The notes beneath the pieces were generated by a model. That model saw nothing but the letters and a program-made list of their open reading frames with translations, did not search any database and was not told where the DNA came from. A DNA stretch of 64,000 nt. Source: an uncultured Bacteroidales bacterium. GTDB lineage: Bacteria; Bacteroidota; Bacteroidia; Bacteroidales; FEN-979. The stretch is taken from assembly GCA_903926565.1 (NCBI GenBank), contig CAIYJU010000052.1, positions 18,581 to 82,580 of the forward strand, written 5' to 3'. Both the position numbers and the translations under genes were made by a program. Shown here in pieces: positions 18,850 to 46,253 of this stretch (its first letter is position 1; each line of letters begins with the position of its first letter).

Positions 18850-20068
18850 TCCTTACTTAGGATTGGGCTATCGGCAACCCTCCAGTAGCCTTTTCTGGTA
18901 TTCGCAGATTCCCAGGCTTTAGGCCGTGGGATACCGAGTTTAATCAGGTTGTGGCGTTTGGATCTGATGCGTTTCCATTGTTTCCAAATCAATGATCTCA
19001 ACCGCCGTCTGAACCATTCGTCAGTTCACTCAAGCAGGATTTTCATGTCGGCAAGCCGGAAGTAATTCAGCCATCCTGTGATGAATTGGCGCAATGCTTC
19101 CTTTCTGCGTTCATTTCCCCAACCGTTGCTGCGACAGGTCAGCTCCCTGATTTTCGCATTCATCTTTTCTACGCTCTTCCGGTGAATGCGGATTTTGCAC
19201 CCATCCTTTGTAAAGTAAAATCCATACCCCAAAAACTTTACGTCTTTGATGTGGGCCACTACCGTCTTGTTTTGATTTACTTTCAGGCACAATGTACCTT
19301 CGATGTATTTCGTGATGCTTGCAAGCACCCTTGCGGCTGCCCATTCGCTTCGGCAAAATATCATACAATCGTCGGCGTACCTCACGAACCGGTGGGTTTG
19401 CAAATACAAACGCAGTGCTTCCGTATCCATCCCGTCTATCCCTCCACTCCCATTATTCCGCTTCACTTGTTTGTAAGCTGAATTTAGATTGGCAGGTGAC
19501 AGAATGTACTCAAATAGCTCTGCTCCTCCTGTCGTTATGTTGGTGTCTCCTTTTTCGGTCATCCATAGGAATGTCTGCCCTTCTGCGTAGCTTTCGAGTG
19601 CCGCTCTATCATTCTGCAAACAGGTGTCTTTATCCGTTTTCTGCTCTCTGCCATTCATACGGTAACGATCATTTGATGCTCACCTCTTAAGATTTGACCC
19701 TTCCAATATCAACCCATGGTATCGTACTATGGTCGCTGCTGACTCCTGTTGGCAATTGTTAGCCGTGTTTCTTACTCCGTTTCCACACGTCCAACAGGTC
19801 TCCCGTGGTAAACTTATTCCCTTTCATCCCAGGTAACCGCTGCATTTACACCCCAACATCCGGGTAGTTTTTGGACTTCGATTTGTCTTGCAATCTCATC
19901 CTGCCGGGTATGCCTGATGCAATTCGTGTTCCTCGGTACGGGACTTTGCCTCCTGCTTCCTTCAGATTCCGCTTCACAACGGACACCCTTGCTCCTGGCT
20001 AATGGTTGGTAACTACCGACCTCCATAAAGGACTTGCACCTTCAAGGTTATAAGTGTGCACGGCACAC
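18850..20068 (-). mobile_element. decayed group II intron (class C-like placement) inserted immediately downstream of the tRNA-Met terminator; the 3-prime boundary is approximate
   Basis: On the minus strand the terminator hairpin and U-run are followed directly by GTGTGCCGTGCAC (a GUGYG 5-prime intron consensus). An intron-encoded RT/maturase ORF lies within the element. Confidence 0.55.
19026..19658 (-). CDS. group II intron reverse transcriptase/maturase, internally deleted (RT domains 2-4 missing), probably non-functional
   Basis: ELFEYILSPANLNSAYKQVKRNNGSGGIDGMD (RT0/1) is joined directly to RFVRYADDCMIFCRS (the RT5 YADD box). The maturase X-domain motif QFITGWLNYFR is present. Total length is 210 aa against roughly 400+ aa for an intact protein. 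Confidence 0.65.
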   Translation of the reverse strand: MNGREQKTDKDTCLQNDRAALESYAEGQTFLWMTEKGDTNITTGGAELFEYILSPANLNSAYKQVKRNNGSGGIDGMDTEALRLYLQTHRFVRYADDCMIFCRSEWAAARVLASITKYIEGTLCLKVNQNKTVVAHIKDVKFLGYGFYFTKDGCKIRIHRKSVEKMNAKIRELTCRSNGWGNERRKEALRQFITGWLNYFRLADMKILLE

Positions 20069-20110: not shown

Positions 20111-20115
20111 TGAAG

Positions 20116-20189
20116 TGGGCCCACTAGGACTTGAACCTAGGACCAATAGATTATGAGTCTACTGCTCTAACCATCTGAGCTATGGGCCC
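20116..20189 (-). tRNA. tRNA-Met (anticodon CAT; could alternatively be tRNA-Ile2 if lysidine-modified)
   Basis: GGGCCCATAGCTCAGATGGTTAGAGCAGTAGACTCATAATCTATTGGTCCTAGGTTCAAGTCCTAGTGGGCCCA folds as a cloverleaf: 7-bp acceptor stem, GTTCAAGTC T-loop, CTCATAA anticodon loop. Confidence 0.85.
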
Positions 20190-40737: not shown

Positions 40738-41238
40738 TCAGCGCCTGTTCATCCATCCTTTGCGGAACCGCTCCTGCGTGGGATCATGCCTGATCAGATC
40801 GTCAATAAATGTTGCTCTGGCATCAGCGATTTTACCATGAATCTCTTGCTGATTTGCTGAATTCAGCGCGGTGACGGTTTTCGGTCCTACCGACCCGTCG
40901 TCGGCAACACCCAGCAATCGCTGCGGAATGACAATTCCCCATTTGCCCGAAGCCCATACCCAGTCAACCAGGATATCTGCCACTGACTGATTCACAATTT
41001 GGTCTGCCTTCCAGCGGTCCCAGTAGAATTTCTTCAGCACCACCGTGGCATCTGCCCGGGTGAGGAGCCGCATATCGGCGGCATCTATGTCTCCATCGCC
41101 ATCCTTGTCATACCCGACCTGCCTCCAGGTTGCGAGGGTAACACCCATGTTTGTTGCACCGCCCCGGTCGAGCGGGTCATTCACAAAACCCCCTTCCCAT
41201 TTGAATATTTTGGGGGCTAAAATATTTACATCGGCCAT
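40738..41238 (-). CDS. GH108-family N-acetylmuramidase-like domain plus PG_binding_3 peptidoglycan-binding domain, with an inserted EF-hand-like Ca-binding loop; no signal peptide
   Basis: [23 protein letters not shown] (GH108 signature, catalytic-Glu context); [12 protein letters not shown] fits the 12-residue EF-hand loop; C-terminal [12 protein letters not shown] is PG_binding_3-like. Confidence 0.65.
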
Positions 41239-41673
41239 CGTTTTTCGTTTTTAACTTGTTTGACAAATAGAAACAAAGATAAATGAATAAAATTTCAGGT
41301 TGGACAATTTACGATTGACGAATAAATTTCATTTTCTTTCGTATCAGACCGGTCAAATTTAGGATATTAAGTTCACATTTGTTGTTTATGGATAAGAGCA
41401 ATGTGAGGTACAACAATCGCAGATGAGAACAGAACAATCTTTTCGTGTTCGACGCGACCGGAATACTTGTCCGGAAATTCTCCATTCCAAAAAACTCACA
41501 AGGGCTTGTTACCTGGGATGGCAGGATCTCATGCAACTAAATCACACCATATTGTGATTTAGTTGGTTTTGCTGTTAACGCGTTGCATTATATCCGGAAA
41601 AAACACAAAATAGTGTGATATTTATGGTTATTTGAAAAACAATCTTTACATTTGTCAATATAATCACTTTAAA

Positions 41674-41886
41674 ATGTTAGCCGGGCAACTTGGAAAAACC
41701 ATAAAACTCAGACGAAAAGAGTTGAGTTTAACTCAGCCGCACCTGGCTGAATTGGCAAATATCAGCACCAATACTTTGTATAAACTGGAGCGTGGGCAGG
41801 GAAATCCATCATTGGCGGTGCTGAACAAATTAGCCGAAGTATTGGGTATGGAACTATCCCTTCGCGTTAAACGAATTATTGAATAA
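41674..41886 (+). CDS. hipB: XRE-family HTH antitoxin (HipB-like)
   Basis: LSLTQPHLAELANISTNTLYKLERGQGNPSLAVLNKLAEVLGMEL. A TAcaTTTG -7-like promoter motif sits about 20 nt upstream. Confidence 0.7.
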   Translation: MLAGQLGKTIKLRRKELSLTQPHLAELANISTNTLYKLERGQGNPSLAVLNKLAEVLGMELSLRVKRIIE

Positions 41887-42216
41887 ATGAGAAAAGCGGA
41901 GGTCTATAACAATGGGGTACTCGCGGGCTTTCTCATCGAAGAAGGCCGGAATCATTATATATTCCGGTATGAGGATGCTTATTTTAACGACCCGGGTAAA
42001 CCGGCAATAAGTTTAACACTTCCAAAATTTCAACAGGAATACGACAGTGAGTTTTTGTTTCCATACTTCAGCAACATGGTAGCAGAAGGAATCAATTTAG
42101 CAATACAAAGCAGGTACCTGAAAATAGATGAGAGAGATTTGTTAAGCTTACTGGGAGCAACAGCAACAAGCGACACTATCGGTGCAGTAACGGTAAAATT
42201 GATTGTAAGGAAATGA
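41887..42216 (+). CDS. HipA N-terminal-subdomain-like small protein (HipS-like)
   Basis: MRKAEVYNNGVLAGFLIEEGRNHYIFRYEDAYF...AISLTLP matches the HipA_N (Couple_hipA) pattern. 109 aa. The start is adjacent to the hipB stop, and the gene overlaps the next gene by 4 bp. Confidence 0.65.
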   Translation: MRKAEVYNNGVLAGFLIEEGRNHYIFRYEDAYFNDPGKPAISLTLPKFQQEYDSEFLFPYFSNMVAEGINLAIQSRYLKIDERDLLSLLGATATSDTIGAVTVKLIVRK

Positions 42217-43244
42217 ACCTGGACGACATTAAATATTGCCCGTGTACATTGGCTGAAGGTTTTAAAACATACAGCCCTGCTGGATTACGCATCATGTTTG
42301 GCCGGAAAAAAGTAAGTCATGTTTTAGACTTTAATGCTCCTGAAGCAGATGAAGAAGTAGCTGAACGACTCAGATTGAACAGCAGCACAATTTCCATAAG
42401 CGGAGCACAGTTTAAACAATCGCTGGTGGTTGAAAACAACAAACTCCGCCTGACAAAACAGGGAGAACCAGGGCAATATATCCTTAAGCCAATCCCCTTC
42501 AGTCCACCTTTTGGGAAAAAAGAAGAGCTACCGGCAAATGAGCACCTGACCATGCAAATAGCCAAACAAGCTTTCAGCATGCTTGTTGCGGAATGTGCTC
42601 TGATATTCTTTAAAAATGGCGAGCCGGCATATATTACGAAGCGATTTGACTACGCAAAAGACGGAAGAAAAATAGCACAGGAGGATTTTGCCTCAATTTC
42701 CGGCATGTCAAAAGAAAAAGACGGAGAAAGTTACAGAAACAGCGGAAGCTATGAAGATATCGCCATTCATATGAAAAAGTACGTTATGGCGCATGCTGTG
42801 GAATTAGAAAAATATTTTGAGCGTATTGTTTTCAACTATTTGTTTAGCAACGGAGATGCGCACCTTAAAAATTTCTCACTTCAACAGACCACAAGCGGTG
42901 ATTACCTGTTAAGTCCGGCTTATGATTTGATTGATACCGCCATACATATTCCTGCAGATTCGTTTTTTGCACTGAGCGATGGACTATTTTCAAATGAATT
43001 TAATACAGAAAGCTTTAAAGTTTTAGGCTTTTACGCTTACGATGATTTTTTTGAATTTGGTATACAAATTGGCATGATGGAGAGCCGCATCAGGAAGATA
43101 TTGGATAAATACCGAAATAAAAATCAAAAAGCGTTGATCCTTACCCAATCTTCTTTTTTAAGTGACTCAATAAAGCAATTGTATACAGATCATTACATTG
43201 ACCGGCTTAAAATGCTTAACACCTCATTCTCGCATAAAATATAA
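42213..43244 (+). CDS. HipA-family Ser/Thr kinase toxin lacking the N-terminal subdomain (HipT-like)
   Basis: Gly-rich loop ISGAQFKQSLVV, catalytic DAHLKNFSL, and SPAYDLIDT motifs of HipA_C; 343 aa. Confidence 0.72.
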   Translation: MNLDDIKYCPCTLAEGFKTYSPAGLRIMFGRKKVSHVLDFNAPEADEEVAERLRLNSSTISISGAQFKQSLVVENNKLRLTKQGEPGQYILKPIPFSPPFGKKEELPANEHLTMQIAKQAFSMLVAECALIFFKNGEPAYITKRFDYAKDGRKIAQEDFASISGMSKEKDGESYRNSGSYEDIAIHMKKYVMAHAVELEKYFERIVFNYLFSNGDAHLKNFSLQQTTSGDYLLSPAYDLIDTAIHIPADSFFALSDGLFSNEFNTESFKVLGFYAYDDFFEFGIQIGMMESRIRKILDKYRNKNQKALILTQSSFLSDSIKQLYTDHYIDRLKMLNTSFSHKI

Positions 43245-43275
43245 CTTGCGAATATCCAGGATTGCCTTCATTTTT

Positions 43276-45398: not shown

Positions 45399-46253
45399 AT
45401 GAACAAAAAGATCAGGGTTGCCCGCCTCTCAATTTTTTCAAACAGCCTGCTGATCATCCTCAAGCTGGGCGTAGGTTTATTGTCAGGCTCTGTGAGCATC
45501 ATCTCGGAGGCCATCCATTCATTCATGGACCTCCTGGCATCTTTTGTTGCGTTTTTCTCTGTAAAGATTTCCGACACACCTGCCGATGAAAGGCATCCCT
45601 ACGGGCATGGAAAATTTGAGAACATCTCCGGCGTGGTCGAAGCGCTCCTTATTTTTGTTGCGGCATTCTGGATCATTTATGAAGCCATCAAGAAAATAAT
45701 CAACCCGGGAGAAGTTGAAAAGATAGGCTTTGGTTTTGCTGTGATGCTTATTTCTGCCGCCGTCAACATTTTTGTTTCCAGGAAACTTTACCGGGTCGCA
45801 AAGGAGACCGATTCAGTTGCGCTGGAAGCCGATGCGCTGCATCTTAAAACCGATGTTTACACCTCCATTGGCGTGGCTGCTGGGTTATTGCTGATGTGGA
45901 TCAGCGGCATTCACATGGTTGACCCGATTGCTGCCATCCTTGTAGCCCTGTTGATTTTAAAAGAGTCCTACGAACTGTTCTCAAAGGCTTATGCTCCGCT
46001 GCTTGACCTTGCATTGCCCGCAGCAGATGTAGAACAAATCTCGGGGATCATTCACCATCATTGCACCGCAGAAATGAGTTTCCATGAGCTGCGGACAAGA
46101 AAAGCCGGAAATTATAAATACATCGATTTTCACCTGAACCTGGACGCTGATAAAACGGTGAAGGAAGCCCATGAGATTTGCGACCGCATAGAAGAAGAGA
46201 TCAAAAAAGCCTTTGATCATGCCGAAGTCACGATCCATGTAGAGAATTTTTAA
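45399..46253 (+). CDS. cation diffusion facilitator family transporter (CzcD/FieF-like)
   Basis: Six TM helices with HSxxD motifs (AIHSFMDLL) and a C-terminal cytoplasmic domain. Confidence 0.82.
   Translation: MNKKIRVARLSIFSNSLLIILKLGVGLLSGSVSIISEAIHSFMDLLASFVAFFSVKISDTPADERHPYGHGKFENISGVVEALLIFVAAFWIIYEAIKKIINPGEVEKIGFGFAVMLISAAVNIFVSRKLYRVAKETDSVALEADALHLKTDVYTSIGVAAGLLLMWISGIHMVDPIAAILVALLILKESYELFSKAYAPLLDLALPAADVEQISGIIHHHCTAEMSFHELRTRKAGNYKYIDFHLNLDADKTVKEAHEICDRIEEEIKKAFDHAEVTIHVENF

What the first reader, a model, noticed from the sequence alone, without database searches (positions are those of the whole stretch)
41632..43244. Tripartite HipBST-type toxin-antitoxin operon (HTH, HipA-N-like small protein, N-terminally truncated HipA kinase)
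Three tightly linked genes on the plus strand. The first is an XRE-type HTH protein. The second is a 109-aa protein matching the N-terminal subdomain of HipA (…AISLTLP). The third is a 343-aa HipA-family kinase that keeps the Gly-rich loop (ISGAQFKQS), the catalytic DxHxKN motif (DAHLKNFSL) and the activation-loop-like SPAYDLID, but lacks the N-terminal subdomain. This reproduces the split-HipA architecture described for HipBST in enteropathogenic E. coli, where the small HipS protein acts as the antitoxin; here it is in a Bacteroidota background. The module sits in a small accessory patch after lysS, together with a GH108 lysozyme-like gene, and the TA gene pairs are spaced 0 and -4 bp apart.
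Basis: partly seen in the sequence, partly recalled or inferred. Interest (0 to 1): 0.7.

Follow-up and report, generated by a model that had tools for sequence, protein, structure and literature searches.

The report
Legionella-type HipBST toxin-antitoxin cassette
This is an intact three-gene HipBST toxin-antitoxin module (DNA-binding HipB, small antitoxin HipS, kinase toxin HipT) inserted as a 2-kb cassette in a Bacteroidota chromosome; it is an ordinary member of a family already reported as widespread in this phylum.

Summary
Three tightly coupled plus-strand genes (spacing 0 and -4) encode a 70-aa XRE-type HTH protein, a 109-aa Couple_hipA protein and a 343-aa HipA_C kinase that lacks the HipA N-subdomain. 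Their best solved relatives, over full length, are HipB, HipS and HipT of Legionella pneumophila and E. coli O127. All ATP-binding and catalytic residues are present and are conserved in 67 related loci. The same gene order recurs in about 65 of 72 genomes (Bacteroidota, Balneolia, Ignavibacteria, Neomarinimicrobiota) and on Bacteroidota plasmids.

New details:
- The cassette is a roughly 2-kb, low-GC insertion at a lysS/PAD junction that is uninterrupted in about 45 syntenic contigs.
- It carries evenly spaced 18-nt operators (consensus ATCACA-TTATAA-TGTGAT) around a Bacteroidota-type -7 box. This is the 6-6-6, three-site layout shown experimentally for Legionella HipB.
- HipS has Ile where E. 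coli HipS has the essential Trp65, so it is Legionella-like.
- HipT has the E. coli-like Ser-Ile-Ser loop.
- A sister genome carries a natural 59-codon deletion that removes the catalytic core.

Lin et al. (mBio 2023) already reported Legionella-type HipBST as widespread in the FCB group. This is therefore a new member of a known kind, of low-to-moderate interest. Toxicity, neutralisation and target are untested.

The parts
41239..43275 (.). Inserted segment (about 2.04 kb) between the GH108 start codon and the PAD_porph stop codon; contains the whole hipBST cassette
   Evidence: In L074 the same interval is 41 bp. About 45 syntenic metagenome contigs have lysS and PAD directly adjacent. GC is 0.36-0.42 here against 0.47-0.53 in the flanks.
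41534..41565 (.). Operator O1: perfect palindrome with 13-nt arms; the core at 41541-41558, ATCACAccatatTGTGAT, has 0 mismatches to the family consensus
   Evidence: Inverted repeat I4. Pattern search. A site at the same position (-133) occurs in many related loci.
41602..41619 (.). Operator O2: AACACAaaatagTGTGAT, 1 mismatch, 61 bp from O1
   Evidence: Direct repeat D1, spacing 61. Only 2 sites with <=1 mismatch occur in 64 kb, against 0.19 expected. Conserved position -72.
41647..41654 (+). Putative Bacteroidota-type -7 promoter element TAcaTTTG, between O2 and O3
   Evidence: TAnnTTTG lies at -27 relative to the hipB ATG in 18 loci including the window, and at -27+/-1 in 22. Its identity as a -7 box rests on published Bacteroides promoter consensus (own knowledge).
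41663..41680 (.). Operator O3, degenerate in the window (ATCACTttaaaaTGTTAG, 3 mismatches); overlaps the hipB start codon
   Evidence: Sites at -11 are present in 19 related loci; alignment.
41674..41886 (+). hipB: 70-aa XRE/Cro-type HTH protein, predicted operator-binding autorepressor
   Evidence: HTH_3 6.5e-13. couple_hipB TIGR03070 1.3e-16, below cut-off. HipB(Lp) 8ezt_A 2.2e-4. The start codon is conserved across loci.
41887..42216 (+). hipS: 109-aa homologue of HipA N-subdomain 1, predicted antitoxin; E67-G68 invariant, I69 at the E. coli Trp65 position
   Evidence: Couple_hipA 1.8e-16 and TIGR03071 4.6e-24. HipS(Lp) 9e-11. Foldseek hits are HipS/HipA N-domain only. Residue table.
42213..43244 (+). 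hipT: 343-aa HipA-family Ser/Thr kinase lacking N-subdomain 1, predicted toxin
   Evidence: HipA_C 4.1e-39. Full-length matches to HipT(Lp) 1.6e-25 and HipT(Ec) 4.5e-18; profile search 3.6e-35 and 3.5e-26. Model TM 0.69-0.74 to 7wcf.
42393..42416 (+). Gly-rich loop S61-I-S63-G-A-Q-F-K68 (dual-serine S-psi-S motif; K68 = Lp K61 / Ec K64)
   Evidence: Alignment with HipT(Lp) and HipT(Ec). SIS in 57, SVS in 5 and SLS in 3 of 69 sequences.
42852..42872 (+). Catalytic loop G-D215-A-H217-L-K-N220
   Evidence: D215 = Lp D197 / Ec D210; H217 = H199 / H212; N220 = N202 / N215. Conserved in 64-67 of 67 loci.
42912..42935 (+). Mg2+-binding motif S-P-A-Y-D238-L-I-D
   Evidence: D238 = Lp D219 / Ec D233; conserved in 66 of 67 loci.

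Best explanation
A complete, probably functional, chromosomally inserted HipBST-type (tripartite type II) toxin-antitoxin cassette of the Legionella-like subclade. Inferred mechanism: HipT is a HipA-family Ser/Thr kinase that, when free, phosphorylates an essential translation component and arrests growth. By analogy the target is most likely an aminoacyl-tRNA synthetase, but its identity is unknown. HipS is the detached HipA N-subdomain 1. It binds HipT next to the Gly-rich loop and holds that loop in a conformation that cannot bind ATP. Because HipS has Ile69 rather than Trp, the Legionella loop-to-helix mode is more likely than the E. coli Trp65 wedge. HipB is a 70-aa HTH dimer that binds the 18-nt palindromic operators flanking and overlapping the promoter and the start codon, and so autorepresses the operon, probably in complexes with HipT and HipS. 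Ser61 and Ser63 in the Gly-rich loop are likely autophosphorylation sites that tune activity. Shown here: gene anatomy, homology, residue conservation, conserved gene order, conserved operators, and insertion into a conserved backbone. Inferred: toxicity, who neutralises whom, DNA binding, and the target.
For: - Domain hits.
- Full-length best matches to solved HipT, HipS and HipB of L. pneumophila and E. coli O127.
- Fold searches return HipS/HipA N-domain and HipT first.
- Every residue shown by mutagenesis to be needed for HipT toxicity (Lp K61, K85, H199, N202, D219; PMC9325769) has its counterpart, and these are conserved in at least 64 of 67 loci.
- The hipB-hipS-hipT order is kept in about 65 of 72 genomes from four FCB lineages. 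The hipS-hipT overlap of -4 occurs in 34 of 67.
- The same layout sits on a 15-kb Cytophagales plasmid and on other Bacteroidota plasmids.
- The operator ATCACA-N6-TGTGAT gives 74 sites in 34 of 66 loci, at positions -133, -72 and -11, against 1.1 expected. In the window there are two sites with <=1 mismatch, both upstream of hipB, against 0.19 expected.
- Legionella HipB binds three evenly spaced 18-nt 6-6-6 operators (PMC10653801). Its O1, TTACTG-CTATAA-CAGTAA, has the same yTATAA centre.
- The cassette is a low-GC 2-kb insertion absent from about 45 syntenic contigs.
Against: - No experiment exists for any Bacteroidota HipBST in the searched literature.
- Identity to the characterised HipTs is only 28-30%.
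- The target of the nearest characterised relative, HipT(Lp), is itself unknown.
- The window's O2 and O3 depart from the consensus by 1 and 3 mismatches, so repression may be weaker or the module may be starting to decay.
- The AlphaFold models are only moderately confident (pLDDT 72 and 66). The catalytic loop is modelled poorly because the alignment is shallow.
Confidence: 0.85

Rival explanations
1. The same genes act mainly as an anti-phage abortive-infection module rather than as an addiction or persistence module. Infection would release HipT, which shuts down translation.
For: Weak matches to a PADLOC candidate defence system, with the kinase and HipS-like parts in partner genes: PDC-M03A 2.1e-6 and PDC-M03B 3.1e-4. 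Gerdes et al. proposed phage-triggered activation for other Hip kinases (PMC8262856). The cassette sits in a variable, horizontally acquired spot.
Against: The PADLOC hits are weak and partial. No other defence genes flank the cassette. Homologues are common on plasmids, which fits addiction, and nearly absent from phages. This role is not exclusive of the TA mechanism.
Confidence: 0.2
2. The cassette is an inactive or decaying remnant: the genes are intact by eye but are no longer expressed or no longer toxic.
For: The closest genome, L021 (a Draconibacterium MAG, about 91% nt identity), has lost the promoter/operator region and the hipB 5' end. It also carries an in-frame deletion of HipT residues 183-241 that removes the catalytic loop and the Mg site. 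The window's O3 is degenerate.
Against: In the window all three ORFs are full length. Every invariant family residue is kept. O1 is a perfect palindrome and the -7 box is at the conserved position.
Confidence: 0.1
3. It is a canonical hipBA module whose hipA was split by a frameshift or assembly error, with HipB as the antitoxin.
For: HipS plus HipT are together collinear with HipA. HipS matches the HipA N-domain, and HipT residues 54-245 match HipA 143-338.
Against: The split, with its own start codon and an ATGA overlap, is conserved in dozens of distant genomes and on plasmids. An identical sequence occurs on independent contigs. HipT and HipS match solved HipT and HipS far better than HipA. 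No E. coli-type TATCC-N8-GGATA operator lies upstream. HipB is only 70 aa.
Confidence: 0.02

Closest known systems
HipBST of Legionella pneumophila (Lpg2368-Lpg2370; PDB 7vkb, 7wcf, 8ezr, 8ezt)
   Same: - The gene order is the same.
- The overlaps are tight: -4 at both junctions in Legionella, 0 and -4 here.
- HipB is short (70 aa here, 72 aa in Legionella).
- This is the best sequence and fold match for all three proteins.
- HipS has Ile, not Trp, after the invariant Glu-Gly.
- Operators are 18-nt 6-6-6 palindromes with a yTATAA centre, three per promoter in the family and evenly spaced.
- This subclade is reported as widespread in the FCB group.
   Different: - HipT identity is only about 30%.
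- The Gly-rich loop is S-I-S here and S-V-Q in Legionella.
- The operator half-site is ATCACA here and TTACTG in Legionella. The period is 61 bp here, against 53-bp gaps (71-bp period) in Legionella.
- The promoter is Bacteroidota-type.
- The window's third operator is degenerate.
HipBST of enteropathogenic E. coli O127:H6 (PDB 7ab3-7ab5)
   Same: - The architecture is tripartite.
- HipT matches over its full length (4.5e-18; profile search 3.5e-26).
- The dual-serine S-I-S Gly-rich loop is identical to Ec S57-I-S59.
- The catalytic D/H/N and the Mg-binding Asp are conserved.
   Different: - HipS lacks the Trp65 that is essential for neutralisation in E. coli (PMC10627512).
- HipB is 70 aa here and 107 aa in E. 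coli.
- The Legionella-type operators are reported absent from the E. coli promoter.
- The TrpS target cannot be assumed.
Canonical HipBA (E. coli K-12, Shewanella oneidensis)
   Same: The kinase fold and catalytic motifs are shared. The HTH partner gene comes first, and autoregulation is through palindromic operators.
   Different: In HipBA the N-subdomain 1 is fused to the kinase, HipB is the antitoxin, and the operators are TATCC-N8-GGATA, which are absent here. HipA matches only residues 54-245 of the kinase, at E about 5e-6.

Membership tests
HipBST tripartite TA system | Three co-directional, tightly coupled genes in the order hipB-hipS-hipT | tested here: met
   Spacing is 0 and -4. The same order is found in about 65 of 72 related genome loci.
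HipBST tripartite TA system | HipT: HipA-family kinase core of about 310-345 aa that lacks N-subdomain 1 | tested here: met
   HipA_C is the only domain found. Residues 6-336 align with HipT(Lp) 1-309, and only residues 54-245 align with HipA 143-338. Fold TM is 0.69-0.74 to 7wcf.
HipBST tripartite TA system | Intact kinase motifs: Gly-rich loop Lys, second Lys, catalytic Asp/His/Asn, Mg-binding Asp | tested here: met
   K68, K92, D215, H217, N220 and D238 map to Lp K61, K85, D197, H199, N202, D219 and to Ec K64, K86, D210, H212, N215, D233.
HipBST tripartite TA system | HipS: protein of about 100 aa homologous to HipA N-subdomain 1 | tested here: met
   Couple_hipA 1.8e-16 and TIGR03071 4.6e-24. 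HipS(Lp) 9e-11. The top 21 Foldseek hits are all HipS or HipA N-domain.
HipBST tripartite TA system | HipB: small HTH protein encoded first | tested here: met
   HTH_3 6.5e-13. HipB(Lp) 8ezt 2.2e-4.
HipBST tripartite TA system | HipT is toxic and is neutralised by HipS, not by HipB alone | not testable with these tools
   This needs expression and rescue assays. Established only for E. coli O127 and L. pneumophila.
HipBST, E. coli O127 subclade | HipS Trp65 wedge after the Glu-Gly motif | tested here: not met
   The window has E67-G68-I69. At this position the 68 FCB sequences have V, A, S, T or I, never W.
HipBST, E. coli O127 subclade | Dual-serine S-psi-S autophosphorylation motif in the Gly-rich loop | tested here: met
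   S61-I62-S63 aligns with Ec S57-I58-S59. S-psi-S is present in 65 of the 67 family sequences.
HipBST, E. coli O127 subclade | Target is tryptophanyl-tRNA synthetase | not testable with these tools
   No computation available here bears on substrate choice. HipT(Lp) does not use TrpS or GltX.
HipBST, Legionella subclade | Three evenly spaced 18-nt operators with 6-nt inverted repeats and a conserved centre, overlapping the promoter | tested here: met
   The family has sites at -133, -72 and -11 (74 sites against 1.1 expected). The window has O1 perfect, O2 with 1 mismatch and O3 degenerate. The layout matches, but the half-site sequence differs.
HipBST, Legionella subclade | Higher similarity to HipBST(Lp) than to HipBST(Ec), and a short (about 70-aa) HipB | tested here: met
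   HipT scores 93 bits against Lp and 69 against Ec, or 125 against 95 with the profile. HipS scores 45 against 38 bits. Identity is only 30% to Lp and 28% to Ec, so placement inside that subclade rather than beside it is not resolved.
Canonical HipBA | Single HipA of about 440 aa with fused N-subdomain 1 | tested here: not met
   The two parts are separate ORFs with a conserved ATGA overlap.
Canonical HipBA | TATCC-N8-GGATA operators upstream of hipB | tested here: not met
   No site lies near 41239-41673. The two window matches (44757, 49334) are at chance level.

The most novel reading that the evidence does not exclude
The FCB-wide family represented here may be a third HipBST subclade rather than a branch of the Legionella one. 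It combines the E. coli-type dual-serine Gly-rich loop with a Trp-less, Legionella-type HipS, a short HipB and 6-6-6 operators of a new specificity (ATCACA half-sites). It may also phosphorylate a target other than TrpS or GltX. The naturally occurring catalytic-core deletion in a sister genome would then mark counter-selection of an active toxin.
Probability: 0.3. Interest if true: 0.45.

Novelty: new member of a known kind. Interest (0 to 1): 0.25.

Why it matters
The finding mainly serves as a clean, well-bounded example. The cassette is intact, its insertion site is mapped against about 45 empty sites, a sister genome carries a decayed copy, and its operators are predicted and shared across four FCB lineages. 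Three things follow for Hip-kinase work.
- It gives a testable operator consensus (ATCACA-TTATAA-TGTGAT) for the largest and least studied part of the HipBST family.
- It shows that the Trp65 wedge is not general, whereas the dual-serine loop is.
- It offers abundant sequences (thousands of kinase hits; 924 for HipS) for covariation or target-finding studies.
It does not change the current picture of HipBST biology.

Tried and rejected
- Rfam scan of the 435-bp upstream region and of the whole window. Nothing was found near the module. The O1 palindrome gave only sub-threshold hairpin hits. O1 was also flagged as terminator-like, but its positional conservation together with O2 and O3 across loci argues for an operator.
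- Sigma-70 consensus promoter scan. Matches did not exceed the number found in shuffled sequence (4 found, 5.5 expected in shuffles). A Bacteroidota -7 box fits instead.
- Supplementary Table S1 of Gerdes et al. 2021 was searched for Bacteroidetes HipT entries. The stored file is truncated, so whether any of the 48 published hipBST modules are from Bacteroidetes could not be read.
- lysS adjacency as a clue to the target. lysS also neighbours hipBST in L065, and a class IIb synthetase-like hit lies in L016. However, synteny shows the window's adjacency is just the insertion site. With about 20 synthetase genes per genome, the count is within chance, so this lead was dropped.
- Paralogues in the window: none.
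- Phage origin: only one weak hit among 50,697 phage records.
- Target-site duplications at the insertion borders: none recognisable at the divergence of L074.
Full report
**Observation**

The three plus-strand ORFs exist as described: 41632/41674..41886, 41887..42216 (109 aa) and 42213..43244 (343 aa). The sequence shows TAA followed directly by ATG between genes 1 and 2, and an ATGA overlap between genes 2 and 3.

Pfam assigns HTH_3 (6.5e-13), Couple_hipA (1.8e-16) and HipA_C (4.1e-39). The minus-strand neighbour at 40738..41238 is GH108 plus PG_binding_3. NCBIfam agrees: couple_hipA 4.6e-24, and couple_hipB 1.3e-16, which is below that model's cut-off.

The HTH gene most likely starts at ATG 41674, giving 70 aa. 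That ATG aligns across related loci, and a conserved promoter element lies downstream of the alternative TTG.

**Identity of the proteins**

Against all PDB sequences, the kinase's best matches cover its full length. They are HipT of Legionella pneumophila (7vkb_A, 1.6e-25, residues 6-336) and HipT of E. coli O127 (7ab3_C, 4.5e-18). Canonical HipA aligns only with residues 54-245, to HipA 143-338, at 5e-6. A family profile sharpens this to 3.6e-35 for Lp and 3.5e-26 for Ec.

The 109-aa protein matches HipS(Lp) at 9e-11, HipS(Ec) at 1.6e-8 and HI_0666 at 1.6e-6. The HTH protein matches HipB(Lp) 8ezt at 2.2e-4, among generic XRE proteins.

AlphaFold models were built from alignments A1 and A2 and are of moderate confidence: HipS pLDDT 72, HipT pLDDT 66 with pTM 0.75. 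Their PDB fold searches are nevertheless unambiguous:
[quoted passage not shown] Nothing else scores below E = 1.
- For HipT, the order is HipT(Lp) with TM 0.69/0.74, then HipT(Ec), then HipA and CtkA.

**Catalytic residues**

I aligned 67 family members translated from genome loci with HipT(Lp) and HipT(Ec). The two reference sequences were taken from the HMMER alignments. The window residues map as follows:

| Window | HipT(Lp) | HipT(Ec) |
|---|---|---|
| S61 | S54 | S57 |
| S63 | Q56 | S59 |
| K68 | K61 | K64 |
| K92 | K85 | K86 |
| D215 | D197 | D210 |
| H217 | H199 | H212 |
| N220 | N202 | N215 |
| D238 | D219 | D233 |

All are conserved in at least 64 of 67 sequences. These are the residues whose substitution abolishes HipT toxicity (PMC9325769). 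The Gly-rich loop is S-I-S, the dual-phosphoserine type of E. coli HipT (PMC10627512), not the S-V-Q of Legionella.

In HipS the Glu-Gly pair is invariant (E67-G68 = Ec E63-G64). The next residue is Ile, as in Legionella, where E. coli and Haemophilus have the Trp65 that is essential for neutralisation. None of the 68 FCB sequences has Trp there.

**Family and distribution**

The kinase search hit its ceiling of 8000 hits. The top 120 are 68-100% identical, mostly 343 aa, and where named are called 'HipA domain-containing protein' from Bacteroidales, Flavobacteriales and Cytophagales MAGs. HipS gives 924 hits, almost all of 109 aa.

In species-representative genomes, 72 loci were recovered from Bacteroidota, Balneolia, Ignavibacteria and Neomarinimicrobiota. 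hipB, hipS and hipT are all present in the same order in about 65 of them. The hipS-hipT overlap is -4 in 34 of 67.

The same tricistron lies on Bacteroidota plasmids. One example is the 15-kb Chondrinema litorale plasmid, annotated HTH / HipA N-terminal domain / HipA domain. It is essentially absent from phage records.

This matches the published statement that HipBST(Lp) homologues are 'widely distributed ... particularly the FCB superphylum' (PMC10653801). No experimental study of a Bacteroidota HipBST was found.

**Regulatory region**

Upstream of hipB there is a perfect palindrome with 13-nt arms at 41534-41565. Its core is ATCACAccatatTGTGAT. A second copy lies 61 bp downstream at 41602-41619, with 1 mismatch. 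These are the only two sites with at most 1 mismatch in the 64 kb, against 0.19 expected.

Aligning the upstream regions of related loci on the hipB ATG shows the same 18-nt element (consensus ATCACA-TTATAA-TGTGAT) at three fixed positions: about -133, -72 and -11. The third overlaps the start codon. In total there are 74 sites in 34 of 66 loci, against 1.1 in shuffles and 3 in coding controls. In the window the third site is degenerate (ATCACTttaaaaTGTTAG).

A TAnnTTTG element sits at -27 in 18 loci including the window (41647-41654), between the second and third sites. This is the Bacteroidetes -7 consensus (own knowledge).

The layout parallels the experimentally defined Legionella system, which has three evenly spaced 18-nt operators with 6-nt inverted repeats and a conserved centre, bound by HipB(Lp) in EMSA. 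From the published oligonucleotide, Legionella O1 is TTACTG-CTATAA-CAGTAA, 24 nt upstream of the start. The geometry and the yTATAA centre are the same, but the half-sites differ. No E. coli hipBA-type operator is present. Rfam finds nothing significant in this region.

**Genomic setting**

Using the neighbouring PAD_porph protein as a probe, about 45 metagenome contigs show the backbone PorZ-RecO-LysS / PAD-(CDF)-SLT, with lysS and PAD convergent and directly adjacent.
- L074 carries only the GH108 gene between them, with 41 bp between GH108 and PAD.
- L078 carries two unrelated small ORFs there.
- Only the window, an identical metagenome contig (L001) and a Draconibacterium MAG (L021, about 91% nucleotide identity) have GH108 plus hipBST.

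The hipBST cassette is thus a roughly 2.04-kb insertion (41239-43275) at a variable junction. Its GC is 0.36-0.42 against 0.47-0.53 in the flanks, and it is compositionally distinct from GH108 at 0.54. The host is a member of Marinilabiliales/Prolixibacteraceae or a close relative.

**A decayed sister copy**

In L021 the segment holding the operators, the promoter and the first dozen hipB codons is replaced by unrelated sequence. That sequence includes a fragment of the 201-aa ORF seen in L078.

In the same locus hipT carries an in-frame 177-bp deletion (window 42759-42935, residues 183-241) between imperfect 17-nt direct repeats. It removes the catalytic loop and the Mg-binding Asp. The 284-aa product (P0073) is on four contigs, so the deletion is real. 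This pattern, toxin inactivated and hipS intact, is what one expects for a once-active toxin.

**Mechanism**

By homology, HipT is a growth-arresting Ser/Thr kinase. HipS occupies the place of HipA N-subdomain 1 and locks the Gly-rich loop in an ATP-excluding state; the Legionella mode is favoured because HipS has no Trp. HipB represses the operon through the three operators and probably bridges HipT-HipS complexes.

The target is unknown. TrpS holds for E. coli HipT but not for Legionella HipT.

A defence role is possible but weakly supported (PADLOC PDC-M03A/B, 2e-6 and 3e-4). A split-pseudogene reading is excluded by conservation.

**Verdict**

This is a new member of a known kind, closest to the Legionella-type HipBST but nearly equidistant in sequence from both characterised systems: 30% identity to Lp, 28% to Ec, and 24% between Lp and Ec. 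Interest is low to moderate. The useful additions are the operator consensus, the mapped insertion with its empty sites, the natural catalytic deletion, and the mixed E. coli/Legionella feature set.

Noticed in passing
window 19812-19983 (-) and 20115-20189 (-): Rfam group II intron domain D1-D4 (RF02001, 133.9 bits) lies about 130 bp from a tRNA-Met gene.
   Followed up: no
window 40738-41238 (-): The GH108 + PG_binding_3 muramidase-like gene is itself an accessory insertion at the lysS/PAD junction. It is present alone in L074 and absent from about 45 syntenic contigs. Its GC is 0.54, unlike hipBST, so the two were acquired separately.
   Followed up: partly
L021 5001-5852 (equivalent to window 42759-42935): The sister Draconibacterium MAG has an in-frame 59-codon deletion in hipT between imperfect 17-nt direct repeats (GATAyCGCCATwCATAT). 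It removes the catalytic loop and the Mg-binding Asp. The 284-aa product P0073 is seen on 4 contigs.
   Followed up: yes
L021 4311-4495 (equivalent to window 41389-41707); L078 9568-10173: In L021 the hipB promoter/operators and 5' end are replaced by sequence encoding WQTGGTLQVFVKGDLAIL. This matches the N-terminus of a 201-aa secreted-protein ORF that occupies the same lysS/PAD junction in L078. It suggests recombination among alternative cargo at this hotspot.
   Followed up: partly
window 45399-46253 (+): The cation-efflux (CDF) gene next to PAD is present in some syntenic relatives and missing in others, for example L021, L078 and L084.
   Followed up: no
L065 2692-4200 and L016 720-1268: lysS (57% identity) also lies immediately upstream of hipS in a Chitinophagaceae MAG, and a class IIb synthetase-like gene lies near hipBST in a Balneolaceae MAG. 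Judged to be within chance once all synthetases are counted.
   Followed up: partly
L053, L031, L049, L014: A few related loci have large gaps between hipS and hipT (786, 273 and 116 bp) or a shortened hipT. These are possible insertions or decay events in other lineages.
   Followed up: no
window 41239-41533: About 295 bp between the GH108 start and operator O1 has no convincing ORF, no Rfam match and no conservation in other hipBST loci. The part at 41239-41388 is shared with L021. It presumably holds the GH108 promoter; its origin is unknown.
   Followed up: partly
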